64,000 nucleotides of DNA from a virus (Duplodnaviria; Heunggongvirae; Uroviricota; Caudoviricetes). The stretch covers positions 47,072 through 111,071 of the IMG/VR virus record IMGVR_UViG_3300030037_000008; one strand, written 5' to 3'. Shown here in pieces: positions 17,544 through 62,497 of this stretch. The translations under genes were made by a program, and so were the position numbers. Below the pieces are notes generated by a model. It saw only the letters and a list, made by a program, of their open reading frames with translations. It was not told the DNA's origin and made no database searches. Numbering within the stretch: position 1 is the first letter of the stretch; each line of letters begins with the position of its first letter.

Positions 17544-17545
17544 AG

Positions 17546-17770: not shown

Positions 17771-17791
17771 TAGGATTATGTAAACCTCTAT

Positions 17792-19197: not shown

Positions 19198-19237
19198 ATA
19201 TGTCCTTTATTTAGGTTTATCATTAAGAAACAACTAA

Positions 19238-19732
19238 CTATCCATACATGGATTCTGCTATATATTCTTGTTCTGTTTTATCAAAGAAGTTTTCTGATGG
19301 AGGATTTCTATGCCAAGTACTTATATTACTTATACAATACTTTACTAAGTATTCTGTTCTACATTTATCAGAATTATCTTTACTGTCAGTAAAGATATCA
19401 CTAAAATACAAACTAGGATTATACCATTCTCTGAAATACTCATTACAATATCTAGCTAATGCTTTAGCATACCTCCAAGTATAGTCTACATTCTTAACAT
19501 AAGGCCACCATTTTTCAAAATGTTCGGAACAGAATTCGAATAAGAATTCTACATCAGAAAAACAATATACTTCAGGGTCCCACCAATCATCAAATCTATC
19601 TGAACAGAATTCTGCTAAGTAAAGAGAGTAGTACCACTGAAATGTATCAGGATCAAACCAATCATCAAAGTACTTAGCATTATCTATCCACCAAAGATCT
19701 TCAAATACAATATCTTCGTTAGTTAGTTTCAT
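19238..19732 (-). CDS. WFDP/WWD-repeat family protein
   Basis: DDWFDPDTFQW, FDDWWDPEVY, FEKWWPYV and FREWYNPSLY repeats. Ends SMYG. Confidence 0.6.
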   Translation of the reverse strand: MKLTNEDIVFEDLWWIDNAKYFDDWFDPDTFQWYYSLYLAEFCSDRFDDWWDPEVYCFSDVEFLFEFCSEHFEKWWPYVKNVDYTWRYAKALARYCNEYFREWYNPSLYFSDIFTDSKDNSDKCRTEYLVKYCISNISTWHRNPPSENFFDKTEQEYIAESMYG

Positions 19733-20232
19733 TCGTACATTACATTTGATAGAATTGAAAGTTTAGATTCGCCATGCATATAAATAGAAGCATCATCAAA
19801 CCAAGTGTCAATGTCTTTTATACAATGCTCTACTAAATGAGTAACTTTGGTTGCAGATTCATATATATGAATCGATCTGTCATCCTCGCAGTAATATTTT
19901 ATATGGTACCAAAGATCAAAGTTATCAGCACAGAATATAGCAAGCAATCCGGAATATCTCCAATTGTACTTATCAGCATTCCACCATGTTTTTATATTAT
20001 CGTAGCAGTGTCGTGTTAATGCATCAGATTCATGGTAATCATAAAGATCTTTGTCCCACCAAAATTCAAAATATTGAGAACAATACTCTGCTAGATATCT
20101 ACAGTTACGCCATTCGAATAAGTCAGGATCAAACCAAGTATGAAACAACTTTCCATTCTCTTCGAACCAATCATCGTTATACTCGATTTCCCATCTTTCT
20201 CTAAGTACATTGTATTCTAATTTATTACTCAT
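19729..20232 (-). CDS. WFDP/WWD-repeat family protein
   Basis: HTWFDPDLFEW, FEFWWDKDLY, IKTWWNADKY, FDLWYHIKYY and IDTWFDD. Ends VMYE. Confidence 0.6.
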   Translation of the reverse strand: MSNKLEYNVLRERWEIEYNDDWFEENGKLFHTWFDPDLFEWRNCRYLAEYCSQYFEFWWDKDLYDYHESDALTRHCYDNIKTWWNADKYNWRYSGLLAIFCADNFDLWYHIKYYCEDDRSIHIYESATKVTHLVEHCIKDIDTWFDDASIYMHGESKLSILSNVMYE

Positions 20233-20264
20233 AATGTCTCTGATATATTTTTAAAATAATATCT

Positions 20265-20292
20265 ACTATACTACACTATTAAGAGATGTAAA
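20265..20292 (-). promoter_or_regulatory. promoter TTTACA-N16-TATAGT with conserved GTTTTACATCTC(T/A)TTAAT element
   Basis: Reverse complement of tgtaaa (20287-20292) and actata (20265-20270). The same -35 context recurs at 21747-21774. Confidence 0.45.
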
Positions 20293-20295
20293 ACT

Positions 20296-20820
20296 CTAGT
20301 TGTATAATGATGCAGTTATAAGTTCTTGTTTAGATTGAGTGAATATATCCGAGTCATACCAAGTATCGATAGCATACATAGCACTTAAAGTTAATGTCTT
20401 TGTTTTCTTTATCATGAGTCTTCTAAGATTCATCTTCTCTAGATTACTAACTGAATTAAAACTATACTTATCTAAATCGAAATACAACTTATGATCATAC
20501 CAATCATCAAATCTGTCGGCACAGTATATCATCATCAGTTCATTAGGTTTGATCTCATTCCAATTATGTCGCATAGGATTCCACCAAACATCTAGATAAT
20601 CATGACAATAATAAGGCAGATGATTATAACTAGACATATCAAACAAATCTATATCATACCACTTCTCTATATCTTTAGTGCAATATTTAGCTAGTAGATT
20701 ACATCCCCAGCGATCCCACTTAAAGGTCTCTATATCAAACCACTCATCAAATCTATCGGCATTACATCTGAACCAACTATGACTGTAATATAATTCTCTT
20801 CCTTCATCATCATTATGCAT
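20296..20820 (-). CDS. WFDP/WWD-repeat family protein
   Basis: FDEWFDIETFKW, IEKWYDIDLF, LDVWWNPMRH, FDDWYDHKLY and IDTWYDSD. Ends SLYN. Confidence 0.6.
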   Translation of the reverse strand: MHNDDEGRELYYSHSWFRCNADRFDEWFDIETFKWDRWGCNLLAKYCTKDIEKWYDIDLFDMSSYNHLPYYCHDYLDVWWNPMRHNWNEIKPNELMMIYCADRFDDWYDHKLYFDLDKYSFNSVSNLEKMNLRRLMIKKTKTLTLSAMYAIDTWYDSDIFTQSKQELITASLYN

Positions 20821-21253
20821 ACATAGAATCCACTATGATTTCTTGTTTAGTATGTACTAATCTTTCTTCACAATACCATACATCTATCCTGTCAATACAA
20901 TGGTCTTTTAGATAACACCACATATACCAATCAAACTTATCAGGATTCCACCATACATTAAAGTTCTTAGAATTAAACTGTGCTAAGTATTTAGAATATC
21001 CTTGGTAGTCAAATCTAGTATGATTCCACCAACTTGCAAAGTGTTCAGGACAATACTTAGCCAATTGACTATATGCTAAATCAGAAATAAGTCCAGGTCT
21101 ATACCACTTACCAAAATGATTAGAACAATTAACTATAAGTAGTTCAATACAATCCCAATCAAAAGTCTCTAGATCAAACCACTCATCAAATCTATGTTCG
21201 TTAGCCCCGAACCACATTTTGCTGTAATAAGGTTCGTACTTATCAGTTTCCAT
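20813..21253 (-). CDS. WFDP/WWD-repeat family protein
   Basis: FDEWFDLETFDW, FGKWYRPGL, FASWWNHTRF, FNVWWNPDKF and IDVWYCEE. Ends SMYA. Confidence 0.6.
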   Translation of the reverse strand: METDKYEPYYSKMWFGANEHRFDEWFDLETFDWDCIELLIVNCSNHFGKWYRPGLISDLAYSQLAKYCPEHFASWWNHTRFDYQGYSKYLAQFNSKNFNVWWNPDKFDWYMWCYLKDHCIDRIDVWYCEERLVHTKQEIIVDSMYA

Positions 21254-21710
21254 ACATACTCTCTACTATAAACTCTTGCTTAGTTTTCTCAATGTTTAAG
21301 TAAGGATACCACATATCTATATGACTAATAGTCCTACTTGCAAATAACTTTAAGGCGCTTCTTACGCATATGTCATGTATAATGGTGTGAGGATCGCATC
21401 TGAACCATGTAGGAAAGTTATCTGAACAGTGTCTAAGTAAACCATCTACTTCGAAATATCTAAAGTATTCAGGATCCCACCAAATATCAAAATGATCAGA
21501 ACAGTATCTAGCAAGTCGGTTACAATGTCTCCAATAGAACTTATCAGGATACCACCAAGTTTCAATCTTGCTACTACAGTGACTAGCTAGATAATGTGAT
21601 TCACTCCACATGTACATATCAGGATCGAACCATTCGTCGAATCTATGAGAATTGTTAATGAACCAAAGTTCTGTGTATGTAACATCAGAGGGGTCTAATT
21701 TATTAGGCAT
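21243..21710 (-). CDS. WFDP/WWD-repeat family protein
   Basis: FDEWFDPDMYMW, IETWWYPDKF, FDIWWDPEYF, FPTWF and IDMWYPY. Ends SMYGN. Confidence 0.6.
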   Translation of the reverse strand: MPNKLDPSDVTYTELWFINNSHRFDEWFDPDMYMWSESHYLASHCSSKIETWWYPDKFYWRHCNRLARYCSDHFDIWWDPEYFRYFEVDGLLRHCSDNFPTWFRCDPHTIIHDICVRSALKLFASRTISHIDMWYPYLNIEKTKQEFIVESMYGN

Positions 21711-28400: not shown

Positions 28401-29078
28401 CTAATCATAAAGTTTAGTCATCTTTCCTAGATTGAATGCTACATCAATAAGCTTAGTAGCATCCAAAGGTTCGGTATCATCTACAATAGGAGAAGAAAGA
28501 ATCATATCTACTGAAGCTCCACTACGTAATGCTATGTTAGTTGCCATGTTTCTAACATCACATTTAAATAGTTTAGGAATATCTTCAGGCTTTGGAGAGT
28601 TTTTACATTTAGCACAAGCTAATACGATTGTCATTTCAGATGAGGTAATAAGATCTACATCTATACAACATAACAACTCTGATTTATAAGAAGTTACTAA
28701 TGATGCAATACCCATTAAGATATCAGTTTCACGAAAGAAGTTAAATAAATCACCTGTATAAGAATGAACATCTACACAAGCTTTAACATAATTCCATGCA
28801 TCTTTCTGACAAGAAATTCCTATTATAGAGTTTTTATAAATCAGAGTACTATCATCAGCTTCAGTAACAAGAATTCTTATTTTAGCAGCTAGTTCTTTGT
28901 CAGTAAATCTACCAAGTAAATCATTGACTGATTCGTTTCCGTCAATCTTCATATCGCAATCTATTACTCTATTAATATGAGCTGAACCTATTGCTATATC
29001 ACTAAGGGCTCCTTGAACTCCAGTAGCACCAGATCCATATGGTATCGATGCTGCAGCATAACTCATAATATTACCCAT
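28401..29078 (-). CDS. hypothetical protein (225 aa)
   Basis: ORF with no confident motif. Ends TKLYD. Confidence 0.45.
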   Translation of the reverse strand: MGNIMSYAAASIPYGSGATGVQGALSDIAIGSAHINRVIDCDMKIDGNESVNDLLGRFTDKELAAKIRILVTEADDSTLIYKNSIIGISCQKDAWNYVKACVDVHSYTGDLFNFFRETDILMGIASLVTSYKSELLCCIDVDLITSSEMTIVLACAKCKNSPKPEDIPKLFKCDVRNMATNIALRSGASVDMILSSPIVDDTEPLDATKLIDVAFNLGKMTKLYD

Positions 29079-33678: not shown

Positions 33679-34095
33679 TTATGAATATAATTTACAAGCG
33701 CTATAAATCAATTCAATTTGTTTGTAGTTTAGTGAAGTGTCAGGTATTTCAAAGGTTCTACCAGGATCATCCAGCATGTCTAATAAGCTTTCTTCAGACA
33801 TAACTTGTAGCGCCATAGTTTTACAATCGTTAACTCTCATATGATAGTTAGAAGGCTTCTTAGAAAACCAATTCTTTTTATGAGGTTTAATATGAAATAT
33901 ATAAAAGCTATCTCCATTAACTCTTACTATGTATCTATTTAAGAATTGTTCTAATAAGAAGTTAGGAGTTTGCCAATTACCTTCACCACACGCGGTACAT
34001 CTAATTGTTCTACTTGCGTCACATCCAAAACAATGACTACTCATTAATATCCTCCTTCTACTACATGAGACATTAAATATCTTCATAGGTTTCAT
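33679..34095 (-). CDS. hypothetical protein with an N-terminal Cys4 zinc-finger-like cluster (138 aa)
   Basis: CFGCDASRTIRCTACGEG. Ends CKLYS. Confidence 0.45.
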   Translation of the reverse strand: MKPMKIFNVSCSRRRILMSSHCFGCDASRTIRCTACGEGNWQTPNFLLEQFLNRYIVRVNGDSFYIFHIKPHKKNWFSKKPSNYHMRVNDCKTMALQVMSEESLLDMLDDPGRTFEIPDTSLNYKQIELIYSACKLYS

Positions 34096-36263: not shown

Positions 36264-36617
36264 TTAGTCATACATTTCTTCTACTGCTACAGGGTTAACT
36301 GGAAGGCAATCTAAACTTTGCCATGCGACTATATTTTCATGAATACATGGCCCACAATCACTAATTGATCCTCTATCATCGTGATCATATCCAAGAAGAT
36401 AACGTTCAACTTTTTTATCATCAGTAGAATGCAATAGAGGCGTGTCTATATGTCTAACATCACCAAGTCTTCCTAAGACAACTATACCTGATGATAACGC
36501 AAGTACTACATTATCACCAAGTGGCGGAAGGTTCTTATCTTTAAATGCTACTGAATCTTTTTCTACAATGATTGTATGAGATAGAGTACCTAAGATGTAA
36601 TTCCATTCATACTTCAT
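36264..36617 (-). CDS. hypothetical protein (117 aa)
   Basis: ORF only. Confidence 0.4.
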   Translation of the reverse strand: MKYEWNYILGTLSHTIIVEKDSVAFKDKNLPPLGDNVVLALSSGIVVLGRLGDVRHIDTPLLHSTDDKKVERYLLGYDHDDRGSISDCGPCIHENIVAWQSLDCLPVNPVAVEEMYD

Positions 36618-37547: not shown

Positions 37548-38048
37548 TTAAAATGGAATATCATCTTGAGCTATATCATTGATGTTGTGAAGACTTGATC
37601 GAATAGGAACTTCTTCTACTTTAACATCTACTAAATGATCATCTTCTTGAGCATCACCAGATAACCATCTGTCTTGTACAAATCTATTCTGAGTGTTTTC
37701 ATGCTCATGTAGATTGTTAATCTCTTCAGCAAATGTTTGATTCCATTTATGATTAAGATCATCCATCTTCTTGATAAATTGAATAGCAGATCTAAGATCA
37801 TTCATGTTAGTTTGCTTAGTAGGATCAGGTTTAAGTTTATTTGATACGCCACATCCCATACAATGGTATATGTCTTTTCTTGGAGTTATTCTTAGACTAG
37901 GAGTTCTTTCGTTATGAAATGGGCATATTGCTAAATAGTGTCCATCACCCTGTCTCTTTACTGGAAGATCCTTAATGAATGTTGGGATAATTTCTGATCC
38001 TTTGAATGGCTTTAAGAATCTCTTTCTACTTCTAATATAAAATTTCAT
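37548..38048 (-). CDS. CHC2-type (DnaG-primase-like) zinc-finger protein, 166 aa, no primase catalytic domain
   Basis: CPFHNERTPSLRI..YHCMGCGVSN matches the DnaG N-terminal zinc-ribbon signature CPFHxExTPSF...hCFGCG. Confidence 0.45.
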   Translation of the reverse strand: MKFYIRSRKRFLKPFKGSEIIPTFIKDLPVKRQGDGHYLAICPFHNERTPSLRITPRKDIYHCMGCGVSNKLKPDPTKQTNMNDLRSAIQFIKKMDDLNHKWNQTFAEEINNLHEHENTQNRFVQDRWLSGDAQEDDHLVDVKVEEVPIRSSLHNINDIAQDDIPF

Positions 38049-41185: not shown

Positions 41186-41731
41186 ATGACTAAAGAATAT
41201 TTGGAATGCATGTTTCAAGATAAAAAGAATTTACGATTAGATATTACATTCTTAGAAGCAAACATTAACACTTTTGAAGAGTGGTATCCTAAACATAAGA
41301 GAGTTGCACTATGTGGCAAAAATAGTATCGCATTAATCACAAAGGCTTTTTATTATTTCGATACATGGTTCTATAAGAGTTCTTATAACTACGAGTCATG
41401 GTCAGATAAGCTACCTGTATTCGCTGCTGATAAATTTGATAGATGGTGGGATGAAAAGCAATATGATATGATTGGATGTTGGAGTGTTTTAGTTCAACTG
41501 TGTCCTGAAAAGTTTGATATTTATTGGCCAGCACTCCAACGAGAACTTCTTATATCACTTAATGATCCGGAAATTCATACTATGTATGGAAGAAAGGAAG
41601 GTTACGTGACAATAGATAACGTAATAGGTCTTTTATCTAACGTACTTCCTAGTAAAATAGATACGTGGTATAGTGAAGAATGGTGCGATAAAACTAAACA
41701 TGAAATAATTATAGATAATTTATATAGTTGA
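41186..41731 (+). CDS. WFDP/WWD-repeat family protein
   Basis: FEEWYPKHKR, FDTWFYKSSY, FDRWWDEKQY, FDIYWPAL and IDTWYSEEW. C-terminus KTKHEIIIDNLYS. Confidence 0.6.
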   Translation: MTKEYLECMFQDKKNLRLDITFLEANINTFEEWYPKHKRVALCGKNSIALITKAFYYFDTWFYKSSYNYESWSDKLPVFAADKFDRWWDEKQYDMIGCWSVLVQLCPEKFDIYWPALQRELLISLNDPEIHTMYGRKEGYVTIDNVIGLLSNVLPSKIDTWYSEEWCDKTKHEIIIDNLYS

Positions 41732-42185: not shown

Positions 42186-42409
42186 TGGAAAATCCACCAA
42201 CCAAAGCAACAACACTGGTTATGATTAACCAAATGCTATCAGAAGTAACTGACCAAGAAGGTCTTAATTACATGGCTAAGTTTAAGTTCTTAGATGTCAG
42301 ACTTCAAATTGACACTACTATCTTAATGGCAAAGGTTTATAGTGTTGAACGAAAACGTGAAGAGTATCATACTCTTGGAGCTTATCTACTTAATGCAAAG
42401 GCTATCTGA
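42185..42409 (+). CDS. hypothetical small protein (74 aa)
   Basis: ATG overlaps the upstream stop (TAATGG). Confidence 0.4.
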   Translation: MENPPTKATTLVMINQMLSEVTDQEGLNYMAKFKFLDVRLQIDTTILMAKVYSVERKREEYHTLGAYLLNAKAI

Positions 42410-43668
42410 TGGATGCTACTAAATTTTTAAAGAAGTATAAAACTGATCAGATTGTAGATCTATCTAAGCTATTCAGTAATTGTAAACTCAGATTTGATTT
42501 AGATGAAGTTCTAAATTTACAGAAGATTACTAAAACGGTAGGATCCTCACATTTCAAAAATGTAATGGTATGTTTAGATCAACATAACATATCAGAAGAA
42601 ACTTTACTTCGTTGGAAAGAAAAGGGTGCACTTAAACAAGCAATTGATTTTTATGCTTCATTAATGTGTATTGAATTAGGATACGAAGAAGATTACTGGT
42701 GTGATATCTTAGATAAGTTAAGTAATGCACTTGATAACAAACCTTTATTAGCCAAGAAAAACACATCTTCTACTATTAAACTTAATGCAATGCAAATCAT
42801 TGTTACTAACAAAATAATGGAAGATACTAAATCTCTTGGTATTTCTGAAACTGCTACAAAGTACTTAAGCAATCCTACTCCTGCTACATGCTTTTTCTTA
42901 CATTACTCAGAAACTAACATATCTGTGGCTGATCTATTATCTCAGATATTTAGAAACTCGAGATCAAGTGGCGGCAAATGTGGAGACAGATATTTAAAAG
43001 GTAATGAAAGTATAGTCAAGAGTTTAGGCGTCCTAGCAATGTTACCATCAAACGATATTTATATGAGAACTTCTGGTAATGTATTCACTGAAATTAATAG
43101 AAGAGGTCGAACTGTTAACTTCCTTGACATTGAAACTAGAGCTGATGAAATTTCAGGAGGAAGTAATGCTAGAAGTAATTTCGCTAGACACTGCTACACT
43201 TCAGCATATAACTATGCTCTTACTGAATTTAACTCTACTGACATATTCTTTGCTCATGCTGCTAAGTATCAAAAGGATGATGATCTAAACAAGACCATGA
43301 CTCATTACTTACGATACATTAAGAGATGGAAACATGTTGATTTAGATGTGTTCTTCAGTAAGAACTTATTAAAGATTTTATCTCTTACTTTAGTAAATAA
43401 ATACGGAGATTATGGATTCCCTTTATATTCATATACAACTAATGTAATCCGTCAAGAATCTAAAGAGATTAGTGACTATATGCTAAACTTATTAGATGAT
43501 CATCCTTATATATCATGTGAAGTATTACATGCTCTCGTAGAATGCAAGAAGAAAGATGTGTATGTACCTGAAGTGATATTCGAATTCATAGACAACAATA
43601 AACGTGATTATAATTTAAAAGAATTGATAATACTAATTGTCAAGCAATCAAAGGATTTATATGCATAA
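42409..43668 (+). CDS. hypothetical protein (419 aa)
   Basis: Long ORF. Ends KDLYA. Confidence 0.5.
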   Translation: MDATKFLKKYKTDQIVDLSKLFSNCKLRFDLDEVLNLQKITKTVGSSHFKNVMVCLDQHNISEETLLRWKEKGALKQAIDFYASLMCIELGYEEDYWCDILDKLSNALDNKPLLAKKNTSSTIKLNAMQIIVTNKIMEDTKSLGISETATKYLSNPTPATCFFLHYSETNISVADLLSQIFRNSRSSGGKCGDRYLKGNESIVKSLGVLAMLPSNDIYMRTSGNVFTEINRRGRTVNFLDIETRADEISGGSNARSNFARHCYTSAYNYALTEFNSTDIFFAHAAKYQKDDDLNKTMTHYLRYIKRWKHVDLDVFFSKNLLKILSLTLVNKYGDYGFPLYSYTTNVIRQESKEISDYMLNLLDDHPYISCEVLHALVECKKKDVYVPEVIFEFIDNNKRDYNLKELIILIVKQSKDLYA

Positions 43669-44779
43669 CCCAAGTACATCGAAACTAAGTTCATTTCTTT
43701 ATACAATGTTTCAAACTTATTATAGAGACGATGCTGTCTGTATGCTTAAGCAATCTAACTTAGATAGATTTGATGACTACAACAAAATTCAAGATGTAGT
43801 AGACTTTACATTAGATCATAAAGAAGATCCTGTTTTAGTATGTCTAATAGGATGGGAGTTTGGATTAAACTCTGAAGATCTTTCCTATGCAAAAACTCTA
43901 GGACAAGATCTCTATGATGTAGTACTTATTGAAGTTATGAAAGCTATTAAAATGGATTCTGCTGAATACATCAAGTTAGCTAGTGGTATTGAATGGAATG
44001 CTTCAAGCAAAATAACTTTATTCATTATGCTTCTGAATAATGCGTACAGATCTAAGAATTTAGTTAAAGCAAGACTCAATAAGGCTTTTGATTCTTTACT
44101 TTACATCCAAAGATTAAGTCGTTCTAGATTGTATACAACTGATAGCATAAAAGGTAACTATCATTGCTTTGATATTGAAATTCCTAAAAGTAAAAGTTAT
44201 GCTTACTTCGGTCTTAAAGATGGTAGAGTAGATAACTTCCTTATAGATACAAACAACAAGAATTTGATTGATGTCGATTATATCTTATCTACTCGCATTG
44301 GTTTTAGTCAAGGTGATGCAGAAGCTGATTTCACCGCAGTTAAATTCTACGAAGAGATAAAGGTAGAAGAGCCACCTAACGCATGGAATAATGATCCTAC
44401 TTCTATAAATGCTATTTATAACAGCTATAATTATACTCGCTCTTCTTACAACGACGATTATCAACAAAGGCAATATAGCAATCAAATTCAAATGATAATG
44501 AATGGGAATAATAGTTTGAATGCTGTAGCTTTAATGTTAGCTTTCGATTTTCCTGATACAGCCATTGAAGCTATTAAAGTTCAATTAGATAGATTAAAAC
44601 CTGATGTTAATTACAATGAAATTCAAATTGAGTATATGTTTAATTGTGCAGTTAATGATAGATATATTCCTTCAGTAGTATTTGAAGAAAGATTAACCAG
44701 TTACGAAAATATAACAAAAGCCATAGCAAAAGATGCTATGGCTCTCTACGGAGATCATGATGAAGAGCCTCCTTTCTAA
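43637..44779 (+). CDS. hypothetical protein (380 aa)
   Basis: Long ORF. C-terminal ...MALYGDHDEEPPF. Confidence 0.5.
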   Translation: MSSNQRIYMHNPSTSKLSSFLYTMFQTYYRDDAVCMLKQSNLDRFDDYNKIQDVVDFTLDHKEDPVLVCLIGWEFGLNSEDLSYAKTLGQDLYDVVLIEVMKAIKMDSAEYIKLASGIEWNASSKITLFIMLLNNAYRSKNLVKARLNKAFDSLLYIQRLSRSRLYTTDSIKGNYHCFDIEIPKSKSYAYFGLKDGRVDNFLIDTNNKNLIDVDYILSTRIGFSQGDAEADFTAVKFYEEIKVEEPPNAWNNDPTSINAIYNSYNYTRSSYNDDYQQRQYSNQIQMIMNGNNSLNAVALMLAFDFPDTAIEAIKVQLDRLKPDVNYNEIQIEYMFNCAVNDRYIPSVVFEERLTSYENITKAIAKDAMALYGDHDEEPPF

Positions 44780-45927
44780 GAATAGAGTGTATATGACTTG
44801 ACTATAAACTCAAGTCTTTCAGCATATTCTTCATCACTGACACTAATATCAAATAATTCTTGGTATTGGTGTCTTTCTATTATGTCTATAACATTCATTT
44901 TGCCATAGTCATATTGATCCATACATACTTCTTTAATTCGTACGAGAGCACTTGGATAAGTGGTTACAAGTTCTTTAACCTTATCTAACTTATGGTATTC
45001 TGCTAATGACAGAAAGAACTCTTCTAGTACCGACGGGAGTGAATAGCTAAATGCTTGACTAAACTTAGTCGTATCTAATACCAATGACTCGGTTTTGTCA
45101 GAAGCCCAATCCGCATCACTATCATCATACAAATCATTAACATAGTTAGAAACTTTAAAGTGTTCAACTTTGTCAAGATCGTTGGTTGCTAGGAATTCCG
45201 GATTGATATCAATACACATTTTATCAATGATGGATCCTATACAGTTCTCTTTAAAGTTCTTTACTCCATGAGTTATAGGTGAAGCTGATAAATTGTAGAC
45301 ACCATATTTGTTTAATTCATTATCTACTATATGAGCTATAGCTTTAGCTACTGTCCTAGTTCGAGTATAACTTTTAGATGTACTCGCAGTATAATCATAC
45401 CCAATCATTCTAGTATTCGATAACGCACCACGTAATAATGAGTCAAACTCCTCTTGTATTTTAGTGGAATAGTCAAAGTCTAACGGGTTTGTTGTTGATA
45501 ATCTTAGAATAATAGATTGAGGATTATAAACTTGTACAATATCTTCAGCTAGCTTAGTAGGACATTGCTCAGCCATTGATTCATTCTTCAGTTCATTCTT
45601 GTTGCTGTTATATACTTTATCATTACTGAGATGTATTAACACCTGATCTTTATTGTTAGTCGTTTCTGCTATACTTCCAGTGATTACATTACTATTTATA
45701 AATTTACTAGGACATACATTAAAGTCATTATCGTGCAGTAGAGTGTTGATAACGTATTCATAGTTCTTTTTTCTTAGATCACTGTTAATACCGTTTATCA
45801 GTAAAGAACAGTCGTCATCTAACATGTTGTTAGTTACTTCAATCACATCATACATAGCATCAAGAGATTCCTCTAGACATTTAAGTATCCATGATCCTGG
45901 TTCTGCTATTATTGCTACTGTTGACAT
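44776..45927 (-). CDS. hypothetical protein (383 aa)
   Basis: Long ORF immediately downstream of uvsX. Its stop overlaps the convergent plus-strand stop at 44776-44779. Ends YTLYS. Confidence 0.5.
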   Translation of the reverse strand: MSTVAIIAEPGSWILKCLEESLDAMYDVIEVTNNMLDDDCSLLINGINSDLRKKNYEYVINTLLHDNDFNVCPSKFINSNVITGSIAETTNNKDQVLIHLSNDKVYNSNKNELKNESMAEQCPTKLAEDIVQVYNPQSIILRLSTTNPLDFDYSTKIQEEFDSLLRGALSNTRMIGYDYTASTSKSYTRTRTVAKAIAHIVDNELNKYGVYNLSASPITHGVKNFKENCIGSIIDKMCIDINPEFLATNDLDKVEHFKVSNYVNDLYDDSDADWASDKTESLVLDTTKFSQAFSYSLPSVLEEFFLSLAEYHKLDKVKELVTTYPSALVRIKEVCMDQYDYGKMNVIDIIERHQYQELFDISVSDEEYAERLEFIVKSYTLYS

Positions 45928-56813: not shown

Positions 56814-57182
56814 CTAAGAGTAAAGTTTCAATGCTATTGAAATATTCTGTAATTCTTTTAGTGTAGTCTTTTTATAATAGCCAGATTGTACTAAATTCTT
56901 GAAAGTTAAGTCGCAGCATTTTGATATCATATATTTACTTGAGTCAAGTCTCATATCTTCTCGGCAACTATCATATGAATCAAGTACTTGAGGTTCAGAT
57001 ACTGCGTGTAATACTAGATCATAGATATATCCATCACGTTTAGGAATAGCAAATACAACTGTAACAAAGTTCTGCATAGAAGTTTCCATTGGCAGGTAAT
57101 ATAGATCTTCAATTAGGTTTATGTTTTCTATTTTTTCACTCATGCGTATAAGCTCCTTAGTTATAAAGTATTGATGACGCAA
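56814..57182 (-). CDS. small protein with conserved C-terminal LYx tail (array member 1)
   Basis: C-terminus GYYKKTTLKELQNISIALKLYS parallels the next-but-one gene (GEYTETTLEELEHLLIVRSLYS). Confidence 0.45.
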   Translation of the reverse strand: MRHQYFITKELIRMSEKIENINLIEDLYYLPMETSMQNFVTVVFAIPKRDGYIYDLVLHAVSEPQVLDSYDSCREDMRLDSSKYMISKCCDLTFKNLVQSGYYKKTTLKELQNISIALKLYS

Positions 57183-57480
57183 ACAATGTAGCTATATCAT
57201 CAAGCTTAATTATTATTAGTTCACCACTATCAACAGCATCAAAAAATGAAGGAGTGGATCTATATGGGTGCTTTCCTGTAGTTTTGGTAGATATCAATTC
57301 AGGGTTTGCATCTGAGCATAGATGAACGTCATATGATGATATAGTATGCTTAAGCATTTCTATACAATTTTCTACATGTTCACAGTAATAAACATGCATG
57401 ACAGCCCATCCAAATTCAAATTTAAGCGAAGACTTACTATACGCATAGAACTTAGAATCATAGTCACGATAATTTTTCAA
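57157..57480 (-). CDS. small protein (array member 2)
   Basis: Ends SILYN. Confidence 0.4.
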   Translation of the reverse strand: MKNYRDYDSKFYAYSKSSLKFEFGWAVMHVYYCEHVENCIEMLKHTISSYDVHLCSDANPELISTKTTGKHPYRSTPSFFDAVDSGELIIIKLDDIATLFASSILYN

Positions 57481-57821
57481 GAGTATAAGCTCCTTACTAT
57501 TAATAGATGTTCCAGTTCTTCTAAAGTTGTCTCAGTATATTCTCCTGAAGAGATCTTCTCTTGCAAGAAAGCATTTGTCATAGCAGTAACCATGAGACCC
57601 ATAGCTTCTCTATATAAGTATCTATTAAAGTTAGCATGAAGTCTGTCAATATTTTCATTGTCTAGGTGATGTTCAATTAGATCTGTTGCGTTATCTGTTC
57701 TTCTTATACAGTAATACACAATAGCATGTGTATGTTTTGATGCATCCATCGTTTCCGTTTTGTATAGATAAGTAGGATCTTTGTCTGGTTTACCTAATGC
57801 AAATTGTGGGTGACTAATCAT
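57477..57821 (-). CDS. small protein (array member 3)
   Basis: Ends ...LLIVRSLYS; C-terminal 22 aa are paralogous to member 1. Confidence 0.45.
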   Translation of the reverse strand: MISHPQFALGKPDKDPTYLYKTETMDASKHTHAIVYYCIRRTDNATDLIEHHLDNENIDRLHANFNRYLYREAMGLMVTAMTNAFLQEKISSGEYTETTLEELEHLLIVRSLYS

Positions 57822-58086
57822 AAAGCTTGAATGCCCTTCTTCTAAGTGTTATTAAATTGTCCATCTCTTCTTTTGATTCTAATCTACGATAAGTACCATT
57901 CATTTCTTTTATAGAAATAGCTATGAAGTGTTCTGATTGTTTTATCATAGTTACAACATTAATCATTTCTAAATTTTCACTACCAAATGTTTTAGGCATC
58001 GATGTTACTTCATAGTAATTGTAATGAAAAGATCTTGTGTTGAAATTATCTATCTCAGTTTCTTCAATGTAAAAATGACTATCCAT
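57814..58086 (-). CDS. small protein (array member 4)
   Basis: Ends RRAFKLYD. Confidence 0.4.
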   Translation of the reverse strand: MDSHFYIEETEIDNFNTRSFHYNYYEVTSMPKTFGSENLEMINVVTMIKQSEHFIAISIKEMNGTYRRLESKEEMDNLITLRRRAFKLYD

Positions 58087-58363
58087 ACAACTTACTCGTT
58101 AACATTTCTACTCTCATTTCATCTTCATCTTTAAACATGACAACTTTTCTTGCCATAGCTTTTCTAGAAGTAAAGTGATTCCAAACCAGGAAAAAATCGT
58201 CTGTATGCAAAGTGTCATCTACATATCTAGATACAAGCCATTCATGTCTACCTTCACATTTATAATGTCCTGACATATAAGTATCAGGACCAGCATCAGG
58301 AGAATAAGGAGCAGGCTGAAGAAGATCAGTTAGTTTAAAATAGTAAGTCTTATCTTTATTCAT
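58079..58363 (-). CDS. small protein (array member 5)
   Basis: Ends MLTSKLYG. Confidence 0.4.
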   Translation of the reverse strand: MNKDKTYYFKLTDLLQPAPYSPDAGPDTYMSGHYKCEGRHEWLVSRYVDDTLHTDDFFLVWNHFTSRKAMARKVVMFKDEDEMRVEMLTSKLYG

Positions 58364-58655
58364 ATAACTCTCTACACATTACTTTATTCTGTAAAGCTTC
58401 TATATCTAAGTGTTCTTTAAACTTTCCTGTCATTATCTTAATATTTAGAGTATGAGATCCAACTATGAAATTATCACTATCATCCATCATATTACAACAG
58501 TCATAATTATCCAGAGTTGAATGTACATCACTGAGATTAAGTGTAGCTTTATAGTATTGCATTTTAGATTCACCGGTGAACCCATTTCCATACCCCTCGA
58601 ATTCAAAATAAACTATGTCTTTATTCATCGCCATACAACCTTGACACTTCATCAT
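58356..58655 (-). CDS. small protein (array member 6)
   Basis: Ends VMCRELYE. Confidence 0.4.
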   Translation of the reverse strand: MMKCQGCMAMNKDIVYFEFEGYGNGFTGESKMQYYKATLNLSDVHSTLDNYDCCNMMDDSDNFIVGSHTLNIKIMTGKFKEHLDIEALQNKVMCRELYE

Positions 58656-58968
58656 GCAATTTGAACAAATTGTAGTTTTCCCATGAAGGAAAACATTCCA
58701 ACGCTTCTATATTTAAATGCATCATTGATAAGACGTCTTTAGAATTATGTAAATGATTATAATATGTAACGGATAAATCATCAAGTGATTCTGCTACATA
58801 GCATTTATAAGTATCTAAATGAGTCTGTTCGGGTAGCTTCTTTATATAGCATGTTGGATAGTTAGCCATCAGCATTTGGAGAGATTTAGTCGTTCTTAAT
58901 AATTTTTCATATACCATTTCAGATTTTTCATACTTAATCATATCTGCTTTAGAAATTCTATACCACAT
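58621..58968 (-). CDS. small protein (array member 7)
   Basis: Ends VSRLYGDE. Confidence 0.4.
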   Translation of the reverse strand: MWYRISKADMIKYEKSEMVYEKLLRTTKSLQMLMANYPTCYIKKLPEQTHLDTYKCYVAESLDDLSVTYYNHLHNSKDVLSMMHLNIEALECFPSWENYNLFKLHDEVSRLYGDE

Positions 58969-59411
58969 TATGAGTACATCCTCGTTGTACTAATATAAGT
59001 ATACAGCTCTTCATATTTTATTTCTTTTGACATACTCAGTATAGTTTTAAGTTCAAAGTCAAGCTCTGTCTCATTCATAGTAACAGTATAGTAGACATCA
59101 GATTCATCGATGCTACAATCAGGTGATGCTAGAATACTTGACATTTTGTAGTATTTTAAATGTAACTTACCTGGCATATATTTAATAAGACTTACGATTA
59201 CAACAGATTCTATTTTAGTGTTTATATATTCTGTTGTCTTGACATCTGTTATAAATACTCTGTCGGTTGAATGATCAGTTTTAGAGATTTCATCTATATC
59301 AATATCATCTAAGAAATCTTTCTGATTTAGATAATAAGGTTGTTCAATAGCTGGGTCTGTCATCTGTCTCTCCGTATAATTGTTCACATGATGTATAAAG
59401 TTCAGCAGCAT
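58968..59411 (-). CDS. small protein (array member 8)
   Basis: Ends ISTTRMYS. True start may be the internal Met (MTDPAIE). Confidence 0.4.
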   Translation of the reverse strand: MLLNFIHHVNNYTERQMTDPAIEQPYYLNQKDFLDDIDIDEISKTDHSTDRVFITDVKTTEYINTKIESVVIVSLIKYMPGKLHLKYYKMSSILASPDCSIDESDVYYTVTMNETELDFELKTILSMSKEIKYEELYTYISTTRMYS

Positions 59412-59649
59412 CCTTTGTATTAAAAAGTATTATTTTATTTGTCACACTTAGTGCTAGTAAATCAGCTTCAGAGAAACGAGTAACTTTACTTGTGGTACCA
59501 GGAGCATCCCACTTAATAAAGTATTCTAGAACTCCGTCAGAATATCTAATCTTTCCTGAATACAATTTTTCAGGATCAGCCATCTTAGAATAATCTCCAA
59601 TGACTAACTTAGCTTTTGCTACTACGTATTTATTTACGAAATCAGTCAT
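59344..59649 (-). CDS. small protein (array member 9)
   Basis: ...CEQLYGETDDRPSY. Confidence 0.4.
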   Translation of the reverse strand: MTDFVNKYVVAKAKLVIGDYSKMADPEKLYSGKIRYSDGVLEYFIKWDAPGTTSKVTRFSEADLLALSVTNKIILFNTKDAAELYTSCEQLYGETDDRPSY

Positions 59650-59998
59650 ATAAATCCTTGCATAAGTAATGAGTTTTAAGAACTTCTATGCTCTCATGTA
59701 TTATAAGACTGTTGAAGCAATCATCGCGAGTATCTTCATCCAGCATAAGATTAATTGTACATTCATCTATAGTTTGACTGCATGTCATATGATCATCTTC
59801 CACGAAATGCCAATCAGTATAATATCTTCCGTCGTATGATGTCCATTTAGAGCTGGATGGAGGTATATATTTTAGAATACAATAACATATAGATTGCGAT
59901 TCATATTCACGTCTACCTTCATATATTTTAGCATGTGAATCATAATCTCTTAGTATTCCATATCTTGCAGACACTATCGCTTTATCGTATTTAGGCAT
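59642..59998 (-). CDS. small protein (array member 10)
   Basis: Ends YLCKDLYD. Confidence 0.4.
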   Translation of the reverse strand: MPKYDKAIVSARYGILRDYDSHAKIYEGRREYESQSICYCILKYIPPSSSKWTSYDGRYYTDWHFVEDDHMTCSQTIDECTINLMLDEDTRDDCFNSLIIHESIEVLKTHYLCKDLYD

Positions 59999-60362
59999 AT
60001 AGAGCCTTGCAATCTAGATACTTCTGAGCTTCGAATAGATCATTAAGTTTTAAATCACCTTCGCATGCTACATTATATAATGATCCAATATTTCCGTGAA
60101 TTTTATACAAACGATAAGGCATTTCAAATAAAGCTACACTACCTACTTCTTCAGGTAATTGTAAATGTTTAGCTGGATCAATGAAGTAATTTGCAACTAC
60201 ATAACATCCATCAGTGTCCATGAAATATTTAGCACAAGCATCATATTCAGGAGCTACTTTGCTGTATTTAAAGAGTACAATAAACTCAGCTTTAGTGGCA
60301 AGCAATTCTAAATAATCATCTGGAACTATAGCAGATTTATCTCTAAGTTCTTCTCTATCCAT
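59991..60362 (-). CDS. small protein (array member 11)
   Basis: Ends LDCKALYA. Confidence 0.4.
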   Translation of the reverse strand: MDREELRDKSAIVPDDYLELLATKAEFIVLFKYSKVAPEYDACAKYFMDTDGCYVVANYFIDPAKHLQLPEEVGSVALFEMPYRLYKIHGNIGSLYNVACEGDLKLNDLFEAQKYLDCKALYA

Positions 60363-60687
60363 ATAATTTTCCTACTGTTACATGTTGTATAGCATCTTCT
60401 CGATTATCATACTGAGTATAAGCCCACATAGTTTCAAAGGCATCATGGAGTTCATCTTTCAGAGCTCTGGTAAATAAATCAGTATGATGTATTTCTTGTG
60501 GTTCAGCATCTCCGTAAGTGGACCATTTGTACCATCTACATACATACCAATTAGTTACAGAAGGACATTGATGAGCTACTAGCATATAAGTACCGATAGC
60601 GTTATCTTCTAATCTATATCTGATGTACAGCGGATCAGGCATAGTGCTACTGTGTATTGTTAATTTTTCTCTATCCGTATAATTCAT
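60355..60687 (-). CDS. small protein (array member 12)
   Basis: Ends VTVGKLYG. Confidence 0.4.
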   Translation of the reverse strand: MNYTDREKLTIHSSTMPDPLYIRYRLEDNAIGTYMLVAHQCPSVTNWYVCRWYKWSTYGDAEPQEIHHTDLFTRALKDELHDAFETMWAYTQYDNREDAIQHVTVGKLYG

Positions 60688-61039
60688 AAGCTATTCCTTG
60701 TTCAACTAATATATCCATCGAAGTACTAATTGACACTATCTTTTCAAAAAAACCATAACAATCTTCTATTTCATCTGAATTGAAAACAAACTTAGAAGTT
60801 GTATACAATTGAATATTATTATCACTATAGAAATTTATATCATATACTGACATGAAAGAACTACGATTAGCTTTAACTTGTAGTACATCATTAAATACAC
60901 AGACATCTATAATTCTATAATAAACGAATCTATTTTTACTAATCTGATCCGGGTGATGTACTAAAACATGACATATTTCATAAGGATCTAATTCAGTGAA
61001 TAATTTTTTATAGTCTTTCATGCGTACATCTTGTTGCAA
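60671..61039 (-). CDS. small protein (array member 13)
   Basis: Ends GIAYELYG. Confidence 0.4.
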   Translation of the reverse strand: MQQDVRMKDYKKLFTELDPYEICHVLVHHPDQISKNRFVYYRIIDVCVFNDVLQVKANRSSFMSVYDINFYSDNNIQLYTTSKFVFNSDEIEDCYGFFEKIVSISTSMDILVEQGIAYELYG

Positions 61040-61470
61040 GTTAATTTATACAAACATTCTTCCATGTCTTTTCCTACTGCTCCAATAAACCAATTAGATT
61101 TAATGAATTCATCCTTTATTGAATACTCCAATTCAATTGAATGTGACATGTGTTTAGTGTTTGGTAGTGTTTGAAAATTTGTCCATGTGTCTGGATTAGA
61201 AGTTAACTTATCATAAGGTCCAACATCTAATTTAACTGTTAAAATTTTATGACTAATTGTTGTTACTGAGTAGTTTGATGGATCGCGTGAAGAGAAGACC
61301 GGATAGTCAGTGCTATATTTAGAAGAATAATCTAATCCTAGTACTATACCAAAACCAAATTTCTTACTAGAATCAAATGACTTAAAATCCATAATAACTC
61401 TATTATCATCAGATGCATAAGCTAATACCATTCCTGGTACTAGATTAATCATGAAGTCGTTAGGATGCAT
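61018..61470 (-). CDS. small protein (array member 14)
   Basis: Ends LTCNKMYA. Confidence 0.4.
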   Translation of the reverse strand: MHPNDFMINLVPGMVLAYASDDNRVIMDFKSFDSSKKFGFGIVLGLDYSSKYSTDYPVFSSRDPSNYSVTTISHKILTVKLDVGPYDKLTSNPDTWTNFQTLPNTKHMSHSIELEYSIKDEFIKSNWFIGAVGKDMEECLYKLTCNKMYA

Positions 61471-62456: not shown

Positions 62457-62485
62457 ATAATAAACCATCTAAAAGAAATGTACAA
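62457..62485 (-). promoter_or_regulatory. early promoter cassette AAAGTGATTGTACA-N17-TATTAT
   Basis: Reverse complement of gtacaa (62480-62485) and ataata (62457-62462). Confidence 0.45.
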
Positions 62486-62497
62486 TCACTTTATGAA

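What the first reader, a model, noticed from the sequence alone, without database searches (positions are those of the whole stretch)
56814..61470. More than 30 proteins in this window end in a conserved C-terminal [LM]-Y-(G/A/S/D/E/N) tail, including an uninterrupted array of 14 small genes
Reading the C-termini of the ORFs shows an extreme over-representation of ...L-Y-x-stop or ...M-Y-x-stop. Examples: all 14 consecutive small genes 56814..61470 (KLYS, SLYS, KLYD, KLYG, ELYE, RLYGDE, RMYS, QLYGE.., DLYD, ALYA, KLYG, ELYG, KMYA); all WFDP-family members (SMYG, SMYA, SLYN, NLYS, MLYV, MLYE); and unrelated larger ORFs (28401 KLYD, 33679 KLYS, 42409 DLYA, 44776 TLYS, 2536 SLYA, 1467 ELYADD, 43637 ALYGDHDEEPPF). 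The tail is usually preceded by a short amphipathic stretch with a basic residue at -3/-4 (for example ...EFIVESMYG, ...LLIVRSLYS). Chance expectation for [LM]Y within the last 3 residues is a few per cent per protein. This looks like a shared C-terminal signal, possibly capsid or packaging targeting of internal proteins, a degron or adaptor tag, or an interaction motif. It is not a described T4 feature; T4 internal proteins use an N-terminal capsid-targeting sequence.
Basis: seen in the sequence. Interest (0 to 1): 0.75.

Follow-up and report, generated by a model that had tools for sequence, protein, structure and literature searches.

The report
Shared C-terminal Leu-Tyr protein tag
About a third of the genes in this stretch of an uncultured 256-kb phage, from some two dozen unrelated protein families, end in the same Leu/Met-Tyr-x tail; it is selected at the protein level and looks like a portable address tag for one common partner that is still unknown.

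Summary
Of 107 ORFs in the window, 28 end exactly in [LM]-Y-x-stop, against 0.6 expected (p about 4e-38). With short extensions the count is 35, including all 14 genes of the array at 56814-61470. The 12.3 kb to the left of the window adds 9 of 24 genes. In 166 kb of other AT-rich phage loci, 0 of 281 ORFs have the exact tail.

The tail is not a nucleotide artefact. Leu and Tyr codons vary as they do across the genome, and the tail occurs equally before overlapping, distant and convergent neighbours. Overlapping ribosome-binding sites and start codons shape only the flanking positions.

With the tail removed, only the WFDP repeat family and one gene pair are detectably related, so about 24 families carry it. 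In a YqiA-type esterase the tail is a roughly 10-residue extension that homologues lack. WFDP relatives in other genomes end differently. Tara Oceans phage contigs have arrays from at least five families ending ...DE-LLI-xS-IK.

The best reading is a lineage-specific C-terminal helix tag that docks accessory proteins to one shared partner. My preferred guess for the partner, an AAA+ protease or unfoldase, is weak. The tail resembles the T4 clamp-binding tails and the LYH Lon degron, but fails the defining residues of both. Function is untested.

The parts
56814..57143 (-). array gene 14, ends ...ALKLYS
   Evidence: paralogue of 57477..57821
57157..57480 (-). array gene 13 (TTG start, or ATG at 57399), ends ...SSILYN
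57477..57821 (-). array gene 12, ends ...VRSLYS; the tail codons double as the AAGGAG ribosome-binding site of the next gene
   Evidence: repeat D4
57814..58086 (-). array gene 11, ends ...FKLYD; 8-nt overlap with the next ATG
58079..58363 (-). array gene 10, ends ...SKLYG; 8-nt overlap
58356..58655 (-). array gene 9, ends ...RELYE; 8-nt overlap
58621..58968 (-). array gene 8, ends ...SRLYGDE
58968..59411 (-). array gene 7, ends ...TRMYS
59344..59649 (-). array gene 6, ends ...EQLYGETDDRPSY (tail plus acidic extension)
59642..59998 (-). array gene 5, ends ...KDLYD
59991..60362 (-). array gene 4, ends ...KALYA
60355..60687 (-). array gene 3, ends ...GKLYG
60671..61021 (-). array gene 2, ends ...YELYG
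61018..61470 (-). array gene 1, ends ...NKMYA
15050..21710 (-). cluster with 8 WFDP helical-repeat paralogues: 15050, 16426, 16959, 19238, 19729, 20296, 20813, 21243. They end ...T/S-K-Q-E-I-I-x-x-S-[LM]-Y-x. A methyltransferase-like gene without the tail (17992..19197) lies among them
106..619 (+). two WFDP paralogues ending ...VSMLYE and ...VQMLYV; the first runs off the left edge of the window
41186..41731 (+). WFDP paralogue ending ...IDNLYS
1467..2549 (+). 360-aa ORFan ending ...GELYADD
2536..3723 (+). 395-aa ORFan ending ...RKSLYA; the neighbour is convergent, so no downstream start codon is involved
5858..6442 (-). 194-aa ORFan ending ...INRMYGD
7095..8648 (-). 517-aa ORFan ending ...SKSLYS
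28401..29078 (-). 225-aa ORFan ending ...MTKLYD
33679..34095 (-). 138-aa ORFan ending ...ACKLYS
36264..36617 (-). 117-aa ORFan ending ...VEEMYD
42409..43668 (+). 419-aa ORFan ending ...SKDLYA
43661..44779 (+). 372-aa ORFan ending ...MALYGDHDEEPPF (tail followed by an SSB-tip-like acidic end)
44776..45927 (-). 383-aa protein with a weak RmlD-like match, ending ...SYTLYS; the neighbour is convergent
62457..62497 (-). promoter-like motif AGTGATTGTACA-N17-TTATTAT at the head of the operon that contains the 14-gene array

Best explanation
The tail is the end of a short, portable C-terminal alpha-helix. The helix often opens with an S/T-x-D/E-E capping box, runs through a hydrophobic stretch, and ends in [K/R/S]-[L/M]-Y followed by one small or acidic residue or a short acidic extension. 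It works as a short linear docking motif, an address tag. In this phage lineage it has been attached to, or retained by, more than 40 otherwise unrelated accessory proteins, which are probably expressed early, so that all of them bind the same pocket on one common partner.

Shown:
- enrichment of the tail;
- selection at the protein level;
- presence on about two dozen unrelated families;
- addition as an extension to a conserved enzyme;
- lineage specificity;
- a sister motif in related marine phages.

Inferred:
- that there is a single receptor;
- early expression.

My preferred guess for the receptor, held weakly, is the substrate- or adaptor-binding domain of an AAA+ unfoldase or protease (Lon- or ClpX-like, from host or phage). 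The tail would then act either as a degron that limits the lifetime of accessory proteins, or as a tether that lets them act as adaptors.
For: 1. Enrichment. 28 exact tails against 0.6 expected in 107 ORFs (p = 3.6e-38). None in 78 alternative-frame ORFs. None in 281 ORFs of other AT-rich phage loci. 9 of 24 genes in the left flank carry it.

2. Protein-level selection. Synonymous codon use at Leu and Tyr mirrors the genome, and the tail is independent of downstream context. In the -8 overlaps the codon holding the 'AT' of the next ATG could be Y, H, N or D but is always Y, and the preceding 'spacer' codon is always L or M.

3. Last residue. It is restricted to S, N, D, A, G (one V) even in the 13 cases with no overlap (read). 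When residues follow the tail, the first is always G or A and the rest are mostly acidic. So the recognised element is LY plus a small residue plus a negative charge, not a strict C-terminus.

4. Unrelated carriers. After the tail is stripped, phmmer links only the WFDP family and the pair 56814/57477. Carriers range from 80 to 517 aa (one 48-aa ORF is the end of a gene that runs off the window edge). They include a helical-repeat fold (AF2 pLDDT 88) and an alpha/beta hydrolase.

5. Appended, not inherited. In the YqiA/UPF0227 esterase, homologues stop about 10 residues earlier. The tail prolongs the last helix and confidence drops at its tip.

6. Lineage-specific. Of the 150 best of 351 WFDP relatives, essentially only members from this genome and one marine fragment (P0102...RAMYR) have the tail. 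Others end ...ELLIxSIK or ...DYIIYKL....

7. Same architecture elsewhere. Tara contigs L015 and L017 carry arrays from at least five sequence-unrelated families, all ending ...[ST]x[DE]E-phi-phi-phi-x-[SG]-I-K.

8. Class bias. Only 1 of 26 tailed proteins tested has a Pfam or PHROG family, whereas many untailed ones do: topoisomerase II, UvsX-like, alpha-glucosyltransferase, methyltransferase, NAMPT, DHFR, ligase, PspA, Gad1.

9. Precedents. Interchangeable C-terminal tails bind the T4 clamp (PMC2988020). In the SulA and Smg Lon degrons, which end LYH, the last three residues contribute to recognition (PMC11986505, PMC8087443).
Against: - No receptor was identified, and nothing here demonstrates binding or degradation.
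- In the WFDP model the tail helix is predicted with high confidence (pLDDT 86-94). It may therefore pack on its own domain rather than be free.
- Only about 80 kb of a 255.6-kb genome could be read, and only one fragment of a second genome with the LY form was found.
- Part of the flanking pattern (K/R before the Leu, a GNN last codon) is explained by overlapping ribosome-binding sites and start codons.
- Against the protease sub-hypothesis: the Lon degron class depends chiefly on a terminal His, and His-to-Asp weakens it (PMC11986505). None of the 44 tails ends in His, and 7 of the 28 exact tails in the window end in Asp or Glu.
- ClpX-type tails are non-polar (own knowledge).
Confidence: 0.6

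Rival explanations
1. The tail is a divergent sliding-clamp-binding motif. In T4, gp43, gp55 and gp33 dock to the gp45 clamp through interchangeable C-terminal tails. Here the tail would hitch many accessory proteins to the phage clamp (or the host beta clamp) on DNA.
For: - The T4 tails read from NC_000866 are ...KASLDFLFG...SPSLDFLYEAND and ...TNTLDFLL.
- They share with the LY tail an extreme C-terminal position, a Leu-aromatic pair, a small or short acidic continuation (gp55 LY-EAND compared with LY-GDE, LY-ADD and LY-GED here) and attachment to unrelated proteins (PMC2988020, PMC7892883).
- The phage has T4-like genes: alpha-glucosyltransferase, UvsX-like, a weak UvsY match, topoisomerase II.
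Against: - None of the 44 tails has the L-D-F core.
- None of the recognisable DNA-metabolism proteins (topoisomerase II, UvsX-like, both ligase parts, methyltransferase, alpha-glucosyltransferase, primase-like) carries the tail, whereas an esterase and dozens of ORFans do.
- The UvsX-like protein ends ...DPSLLLG, closer to the classical clamp motif.
- More than 40 clients for three clamp pockets is hard to picture.
Confidence: 0.12
2. The tail is a capsid- or virion-targeting signal. Tailed proteins would be packed into the head and injected with the DNA. This is analogous to T4 internal proteins, but at the C-terminus as in encapsulin cargo peptides.
For: - Many small, fast-evolving proteins of unknown function with one shared terminal peptide is what a cargo signal would look like.
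- Anti-defence proteins are often packaged (own knowledge: T4 IPI and Alt, P1 Dar).
- A Gad1 anti-defence homologue lies in the same region, though it has no tail.
Against: - Tailed genes sit in operons with replication and nucleotide-metabolism genes, behind sigma-70-like GATTGTACA-N17-TATCTT motifs. TATAAATA is not enriched.
- No structural genes are nearby.
- 30% of genes as cargo would be unprecedented.
- Carriers reach 517 aa and include an esterase.
Confidence: 0.1
3. There is no common partner. The tail is a structural C-terminal cap helix inherited from a few ancestral small genes. Tandem duplication and 3'-end recombination at gene junctions spread it, and it is kept only because it stabilises each protein's own fold.
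For: - Tailed genes are clustered in tandem arrays.
- The WFDP family shows that the helix (TKQEII..S) is older than the LY ending.
- The WFDP model gives the tail helix high confidence.
- Junction repeats exist (D3, D4, D8 and D17).
- The Tara arrays are largely paralogous within each family.
Against: - A purely intramolecular role does not explain why unrelated folds (helical repeat, alpha/beta hydrolase, Rossmann-like, 80-517 aa) keep the same two residues at the same distance from the end.
- It does not explain why the last residue is constrained, or why the ending changes as a block between lineages (LYx here, IK in the Tara contigs) across several families at once.
- The tail-coding DNA is not conserved between genes, so recent recombinational spread is not visible.
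Confidence: 0.13
4. The tail is a nucleotide-level by-product. It is simply the translation of the ribosome-binding site, spacer and start codon of the overlapping downstream gene (AAGGA-N-TTATATG).
For: - Nine junctions have the next ATG inside TAT-GNN.
- AAG/AGG + GAN codons before the Leu form AAGGA-like Shine-Dalgarno sequences.
- One 20-mer, TAAGGAGCTTATAC.., serves once as a pure ribosome-binding site and once encodes ...VRSLYS.
- In the Tara arrays the final K plus stop codon is AAATGA, a start/stop overlap.
Against: - The tail is as frequent before convergent or distant neighbours as before overlapping ones.
- 11 of 28 tails use TAC, which cannot provide an ATG.
- Leu uses five different codons.
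- Free-standing ribosome-binding sites in this phage have no TTATAT spacer.
- Alternative-frame ORFs never show the tail.
Confidence: 0.03

Closest known systems
T4 sliding-clamp-binding motif (C-terminal tails of gp43, gp55 and gp33)
   Same: A short hydrophobic/acidic peptide at the extreme C-terminus. It contains a Leu-aromatic pair followed by nothing, by Gly or by a few acidic residues. It sits on otherwise unrelated proteins of one phage and is interchangeable between them (PMC2988020).
   Different: The T4 consensus is [ST]-L-D-F-L-[FYL] on three replication and transcription proteins. Here there is no LDF core, there are more than 40 carriers, and none of them is a recognisable DNA or RNA enzyme.
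Lon C-terminal 'H-degron' (SulA ...SNLYH, Smg ...DGLYH)
   Same: Leu-Tyr at positions -3 and -2 from the C-terminus, with the last three residues contributing to recognition. It is autonomous and transferable (PMC11986505, PMC8087443).
   Different: The terminal His is the main determinant, and changing it to Asp weakens the degron. The tails here never end in His and often end in Asp, Glu, Ser, Asn, Gly or Ala. Short extensions are tolerated.
Poxvirus ankyrin-repeat / PRANC (F-box-like) multigene families, and bacterial adaptor tethers such as the SspB C-terminal ClpX-binding peptide (own knowledge)
   Same: Expanded, fast-evolving families of repeat or binder proteins with variable bodies and one constant short C-terminal element that plugs them into a single degradation machine.
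   Different: This is an analogy only. Pfam scans found no PRANC or F-box domain in the tailed proteins tested. The motif here is about 10-17 residues long, and no partner is known.
SSB C-terminal tip (D-D-D-I-P-F) and T7 gp2.5/gp4 acidic tails ending in Phe (own knowledge)
   Same: An acidic C-terminal peptide ending in an aromatic residue, used as a hub-docking element. Two window proteins really do end ...DDIPF and ...DEEPPF.
   Different: The LY tail has the aromatic residue at -2 rather than at the end, and it is preceded by a hydrophobic helix rather than a disordered acidic linker.
T4 capsid-targeting sequence and encapsulin cargo-loading peptides (own knowledge)
   Same: Short terminal peptides that address diverse cargo to one protein shell.
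   Different: The T4 sequence is N-terminal and is cleaved. The encapsulin peptides have a different consensus. The genomic context here is not late or structural.

Membership tests
T4-type sliding-clamp-binding motif | Short hydrophobic/acidic peptide at the extreme C-terminus of otherwise unrelated proteins | tested here: met
   35 window proteins and 9 left-flank proteins have it. T4 reference tails were read.
T4-type sliding-clamp-binding motif | Consensus [ST]-L-D-F-L-[FYL] | tested here: not met
   None of the 44 tails has L-D-F. The consensus here is phi-phi-x-x-[KRS]-[LM]-Y-x.
T4-type sliding-clamp-binding motif | Carried by the DNA polymerase, the late sigma factor (gp55) and the co-activator (gp33) | not testable with these tools
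   These genes are not in the roughly 80 kb that could be read. The rest of the 255.6-kb contig was not retrievable.
T4-type sliding-clamp-binding motif | Binds the hydrophobic pocket of the clamp | not testable with these tools
   Needs the clamp sequence plus binding or co-folding experiments.
Lon C-terminal H-degron (SulA/Smg class) | C-terminal His as the main determinant | tested here: not met
   None of the 44 tails ends in His. In the 28 exact window tails the last residues are S8, A5, G4, D4, E3, N3 and V1. His-to-Asp weakens the degron (PMC11986505).
Lon C-terminal H-degron (SulA/Smg class) | Hydrophobic or aromatic residues at -3 and -2 (L-Y in SulA and Smg) | tested here: met
   [LM]-Y at -3/-2 in 28 ORFs. 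SulA ends SNLYH/SYLYH and Smg ends DGLYH (PMC11986505, PMC8087443).
Lon C-terminal H-degron (SulA/Smg class) | Confers Lon-dependent degradation when fused to a reporter | not testable with these tools
   Experimental.
ssrA-like ClpXP/ClpAP C-terminal degron | Non-polar last residues (L-A-A-COOH type) | tested here: not met
   The last residue is polar, acidic or small, and the penultimate residue is Tyr. The defining feature is from own knowledge.
SSB C-terminal tip | Acidic run ending in I/L/P-P-F-COOH | tested here: not met
   Only 37548..38048 (...DDIPF) and 43661..44779 (...DEEPPF) have it. The latter carries the LY motif nine residues further in.
T4 capsid-targeting sequence of internal proteins | N-terminal peptide removed by the prohead protease | tested here: not met
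   The shared element is C-terminal, and no shared N-terminal motif was seen.
Poxvirus-type PRANC / F-box C-terminal domain | Match to the Pfam PRANC or F-box models at the C-terminus | tested here: not met
   No such hits in Pfam scans of 27 tailed proteins.

The most novel reading that the evidence does not exclude
A clade of uncultured marine phages uses a proteome-wide C-terminal address code. A short helix whose last residues are lineage-specific ([LM]Y-x here, I-K in the Tara contigs) plugs a large, rapidly diversifying repertoire of small binder proteins (WFDP helical repeats and many ORFan families) into one machine, for example an AAA+ protease. The phage could then direct many different host targets, such as defence proteins, to that machine. 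This would be a prokaryotic counterpart of the poxvirus ankyrin/F-box families.
Probability: 0.15. Interest if true: 0.9.

Novelty: new variant of a known kind. Interest (0 to 1): 0.7.

Why it matters
Most genes of large phages are ORFans with no route to a function. If the tag is functional, one peptide marks about 30% of the genes read here as clients of a single partner. A pull-down with a single peptide could then assign a pathway to more than 40 unknown proteins at once, and could identify a hub that the phage depends on.

The tail would also give a simple sequence rule for finding the same class of genes in metagenomes, together with its lineage variants such as ...SIK. It would also be a transferable tag with possible use in engineering. 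No phage case of this scale turned up in the literature searches: the closest described one, the T4 clamp-binding tail, involves three proteins.

Tried and rejected
- Source and close relatives. Megablast of the array region against 50,697 phage records found nothing. Exact 46-mer scans of IMG/VR, GTDB genomes and JGI metagenomes found nothing. The topoisomerase gave no IMG/VR relatives. The genome is a singleton 255,591-bp contig.

- Homologues of tailed proteins. The 517-aa ORFan has none. No cultured phage has a WFDP protein or the Tara small proteins.

- Family annotation. Pfam and PHROGs returned nothing for tailed proteins except the esterase.

- Fold of the WFDP repeat. No significant PDB match.

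- T4 late promoter TATAAATA. Not enriched. The generic sigma-70 scan was not informative.

- DNA repeats. The tails are not a repeated DNA element.

- tRNA and tmRNA. No tmRNA tag that could relate to the tail.

- Literature. Searches for a described phage C-terminal tag of this kind found nothing relevant. A citable source for the SspB ClpX-binding peptide was not found, so it is given as own knowledge.

- Rejected on evidence: the ribosome-binding-site or codon artefact; a single superfamily of paralogues (the esterase extension, and the stripped-tail comparisons); and membership in the Lon H-degron, the T4 clamp-binding motif or the ssrA classes.

Full report
**1. What is in the sequence**

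The window is AT-rich (32-35% GC) and densely packed with genes, mostly on the minus strand. A mechanical, non-overlapping ORF set has 107 members. It agrees with the public gene calls on an identical Logan contig.

The region 56814-61470 holds 14 consecutive small genes of 90-150 aa upstream of a topoisomerase II large-subunit gene (54867-56768). All 14 end in [LM]-Y followed by one residue, by GDE, or by GETDDRPSY.

Across the window:
- 28 ORFs end exactly in [LM]-Y-x-stop, against 0.61 expected from the internal dipeptide frequency (p = 3.6e-38).
- Five more have two or three extra residues, and two have longer acidic extensions, giving 35 in total.
- None of 78 alternative-frame ORFs has the exact tail.
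- None of 281 ORFs in 166 kb of other phage loci of 25-38% GC has it, T4 segments included.

**2. Protein-level or nucleotide-level?**

It fails on four counts.
- Leu is encoded by TTA 12, CTT 6, CTA 2, CTC 1 and TTG 1, and Tyr by TAT 17 and TAC 11. These are the proportions used throughout the genome.
- The tail is equally frequent before convergent neighbours (3/8), gaps over 20 nt (9/37) and overlapping genes (14/47).
- Free-standing ribosome-binding sites in this phage are AAGGA plus a variable A/T spacer, without TTATAT.
- The tails are not a repeated DNA element.

The nucleotide level does contribute to the flanking positions. In nine junctions (eight in the table, plus 59642/59344, which that table scores as a 230-nt gap) the next gene's ATG lies inside TAT-GNN. 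This gives an unusual 8-nt overlap and explains part of the G/A/D/E preference at the last residue. AAG/AGG-GAN codons just before the Leu make the downstream Shine-Dalgarno sequence. This explains part of the 'basic residue' pattern: 11/15 with overlap against 6/13 without (read). One 20-mer, TAAGGAGCTTATAC, is a pure ribosome-binding site at one junction and encodes ...VRSLYS at the next.

Even without any overlap the last residue is confined to S, N, D, A, G or V.

**3. One family or many?**

BLASTP and phmmer all-against-all, with the tails stripped, link only two groups:
- the 'WFDP' family, with 11 members in the window and 2 more in the left flank;
- the pair 56814/57477.

About 24 sequence-unrelated families therefore carry the tail. 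Complete carriers range from 80 to 517 aa; a 48-aa ORF at 106..252 is the end of a 127-aa gene that runs off the window's left edge.

The WFDP proteins are helical repeats (AlphaFold2 pLDDT 88, with the tail as the last helix, residues 154-163). The fold has no solved relative.

One tailed protein in the left flank is a YqiA/UPF0227 alpha/beta hydrolase. Its homologues end about 10 residues earlier, so the ...QQQCEVNKLYN end of the phage protein runs beyond theirs as an extension. The model shows the tail prolonging the last helix, with confidence falling at the tip.

Aligned on the LY, the tails share more than the dipeptide:
- a small or hydrophobic residue three positions before the Leu;
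- hydrophobic residues five to seven and nine positions before it;
- acidic residues ten and eleven positions before it.

An [STD]-x-[DEQ]-E-phi capping box occurs in 13/40 tailed against 5/87 untailed C-termini (p = 1.5e-4). The unit is therefore a short terminal helix ending in LY.

**4. Who has it and who does not**

Only 1 of 26 tailed proteins tested has any Pfam or PHROG family. Untailed proteins include topoisomerase II, a UvsX-like ATPase, alpha-glucosyltransferase, a DNA methyltransferase, a nucleotidyltransferase, NAMPT, DHFR, both halves of a split NAD-ligase, PspA, an SPFH protein, a GluR0-like channel and a Gad1 anti-Gabija homologue.

For the PHROG scans alone the contrast is 0/20 against 9/20 (p = 0.0012).

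Tailed genes share operons and the same intergenic promoter-like motif with these genes. The motif is GATTGTACA-N17-TATCTT/TATAAT, with 14 exact copies of the 9-mer, most of them intergenic and co-oriented with the downstream gene. Its -35/-10-like form suggests host sigma-70 and therefore early expression. That is an inference.

**5. Beyond the window**

The source is a singleton 255,591-bp contig found in NCBI, JGI, ENA and Logan run SRR3580189. It is absent from the phage, IMG/VR, GTDB and JGI collections searched. Its topoisomerase is at most 44% identical to any cultured phage.
- The 12.3 kb directly left of the window (L021) has 9 tails in 24 genes.
- The 3.3 kb to the right has none in 8 genes.

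A profile of the WFDP family finds 351 relatives in metagenomes. Among the best 150, the LY ending is essentially confined to this genome plus one 700-bp marine fragment (P0102...RAMYR, from a SOLA station sample). Other relatives keep the same helix but end ...ESYDELLIxSIK or ...DYIIYKL....

Two Tara Oceans contigs (L015 and L017, 32% GC) contain arrays in which at least five families that are unrelated once the tails are stripped all end ...[ST]x[DE]E-phi-phi-phi-x-[SG]-I-K. There the final K plus stop codon coincides with an AAATGA start/stop overlap.

So a shared terminal helix on unrelated small proteins is a trait of a group of marine phages, and the last residues are lineage-specific.

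**6. Mechanism**

The data fit a short linear docking motif: a portable helix whose Leu-Tyr, followed by a small residue and a negative charge (the C-terminus or Asp/Glu), fits one pocket on one partner. The tail is added to, or retained by, many accessory proteins, and it changes as a block between lineages as the partner changes.

No partner could be identified. My weakly preferred guess is an AAA+ protease or unfoldase, for three reasons:
- The ending copies the L-Y of the SulA and Smg Lon degrons, where the last three residues contribute to recognition (PMC11986505, PMC8087443).
- The upstream hydrophobic stretch is the kind of sequence such enzymes bind.
- Expendable accessory proteins, probably expressed early, are plausible substrates or adaptors.

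The defining terminal His of that degron class is absent, however, and Asp and Glu endings are common. The tail is therefore not a member of that class.

The T4 clamp-binding tails (gp43 ...SLDFLFG, gp55 ...SLDFLYEAND, gp33 ...TLDFLL) are the closest phage precedent in form. But the LDF core is missing, no DNA enzyme carries the tail, and the UvsX-like protein ends ...SLLLG instead.

Capsid targeting is disfavoured by the genomic context. A purely structural cap helix does not explain the shared, position-fixed LY on unrelated folds. The ribosome-binding-site artefact is refuted for the core of the motif.

**7. Novelty and verdict**

I found no description of such a tag. In kind it is a C-terminal docking or addressing peptide, which is a known principle. 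It is new in sequence, in scale (about 31% of 140 genes read) and in its lineage-specific variants across several families.

The weaknesses are that function is wholly inferred, only a third of the genome was seen, and no second genome with the LY form is available.

Noticed in passing
window 15576, 15952, 29634, 31515, 33657, 36216, 37529, 62479 (- strand); 41101 (+ strand): Intergenic promoter-like motif (A/G)TGATTGTACA-N17-TATCTT/TATAAT. There are 14 exact copies of GATTGTACA, most of them intergenic and co-oriented with the downstream gene. With one mismatch allowed there are 57 matches against 25 expected. It probably marks the phage's early, sigma-70-type promoters. The Shine-Dalgarno consensus is AAGGA.
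   Followed up: partly
window 37548-38048 (-) and 43661-44779 (+): Two proteins end like the bacterial SSB C-terminal tip. A primase zinc-finger-like protein ends ...QDDIPF, and a 372-aa ORFan ends ...LYGDHDEEPPF. They may mimic the SSB tail to recruit SSB-binding host enzymes.
   Followed up: no
L021 9014-10132 and window 658-1467 (+): The NAD-dependent DNA ligase appears split into two genes: adenylation plus OB domains, and HhH plus BRCT domains. Six small genes separate them, and five of these carry the LY tail.
   Followed up: no
window 45992-47965 (-): The UvsX-like recombinase is 657 aa long. It has an unexplained N-terminal region of about 330 aa and ends ...DPSLLLG, which resembles a clamp-binding motif more than the LY tail does.
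   Followed up: no
window 15050-21710, 106-619, 41186-41731; L021 64-934: The WFDP family consists of repeats of about 32 aa of the form ..L..yC...Fd.WWDP..F.W. It has 13 paralogues in the DNA read here and 351 metagenomic relatives, but no Pfam or PHROG family, no cultured-phage member and no PDB fold match. The AlphaFold2 model is confident (pLDDT 88).
   Followed up: partly
L015 13-2379 and 8859-11036; L017 245-804 and 8929-10356; L008 (whole locus): Other uncultured phages have arrays of small genes with their own shared C-terminal endings. The two Tara contigs use ...DE-LLI-xS-IK across at least five families. An IMG/VR contig has about 20 genes ending ...KM-x-x-HL-x-x.
   Followed up: partly
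window, all tailed genes: TAG stop codons are over-represented in tailed genes: 11/28 against 12/79 in the others (Fisher p = 0.014). This is unexplained.
   Followed up: no
window 57140-57166 and 57477-57503: The same 20-mer, TAAGGAGCTTATAC.., is a non-coding ribosome-binding site at one gene junction and encodes the tail ...VRSLYS at the next. This shows how the tail and the downstream ribosome-binding site are interwoven.
   Followed up: partly
window 14106-15050 (-), 9865-10344 (-): A Gad1 (Gabija anti-defence) homologue (Pfam E = 8e-28) and a shorter paralogue. Neither has the tail.
   Followed up: no
window 29656-30588, 31539-32453, 32894-33580 (-): A run of membrane-related genes that is unusual for a phage: a GluR0-like ligand-gated K+ channel, an SPFH/Band-7 protein and a PspA/IM30 homologue.
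   Followed up: no
window 10344-11520 (-): A second tandem family of four small paralogues (80-120 aa) that does not carry the LY tail.
   Followed up: no
L002 1265-1491 (about 1.4-1.6 kb right of the window end): tRNA-Met (CAT) and tRNA-Arg (TCT) genes lie just beyond the window's right edge.
   Followed up: no
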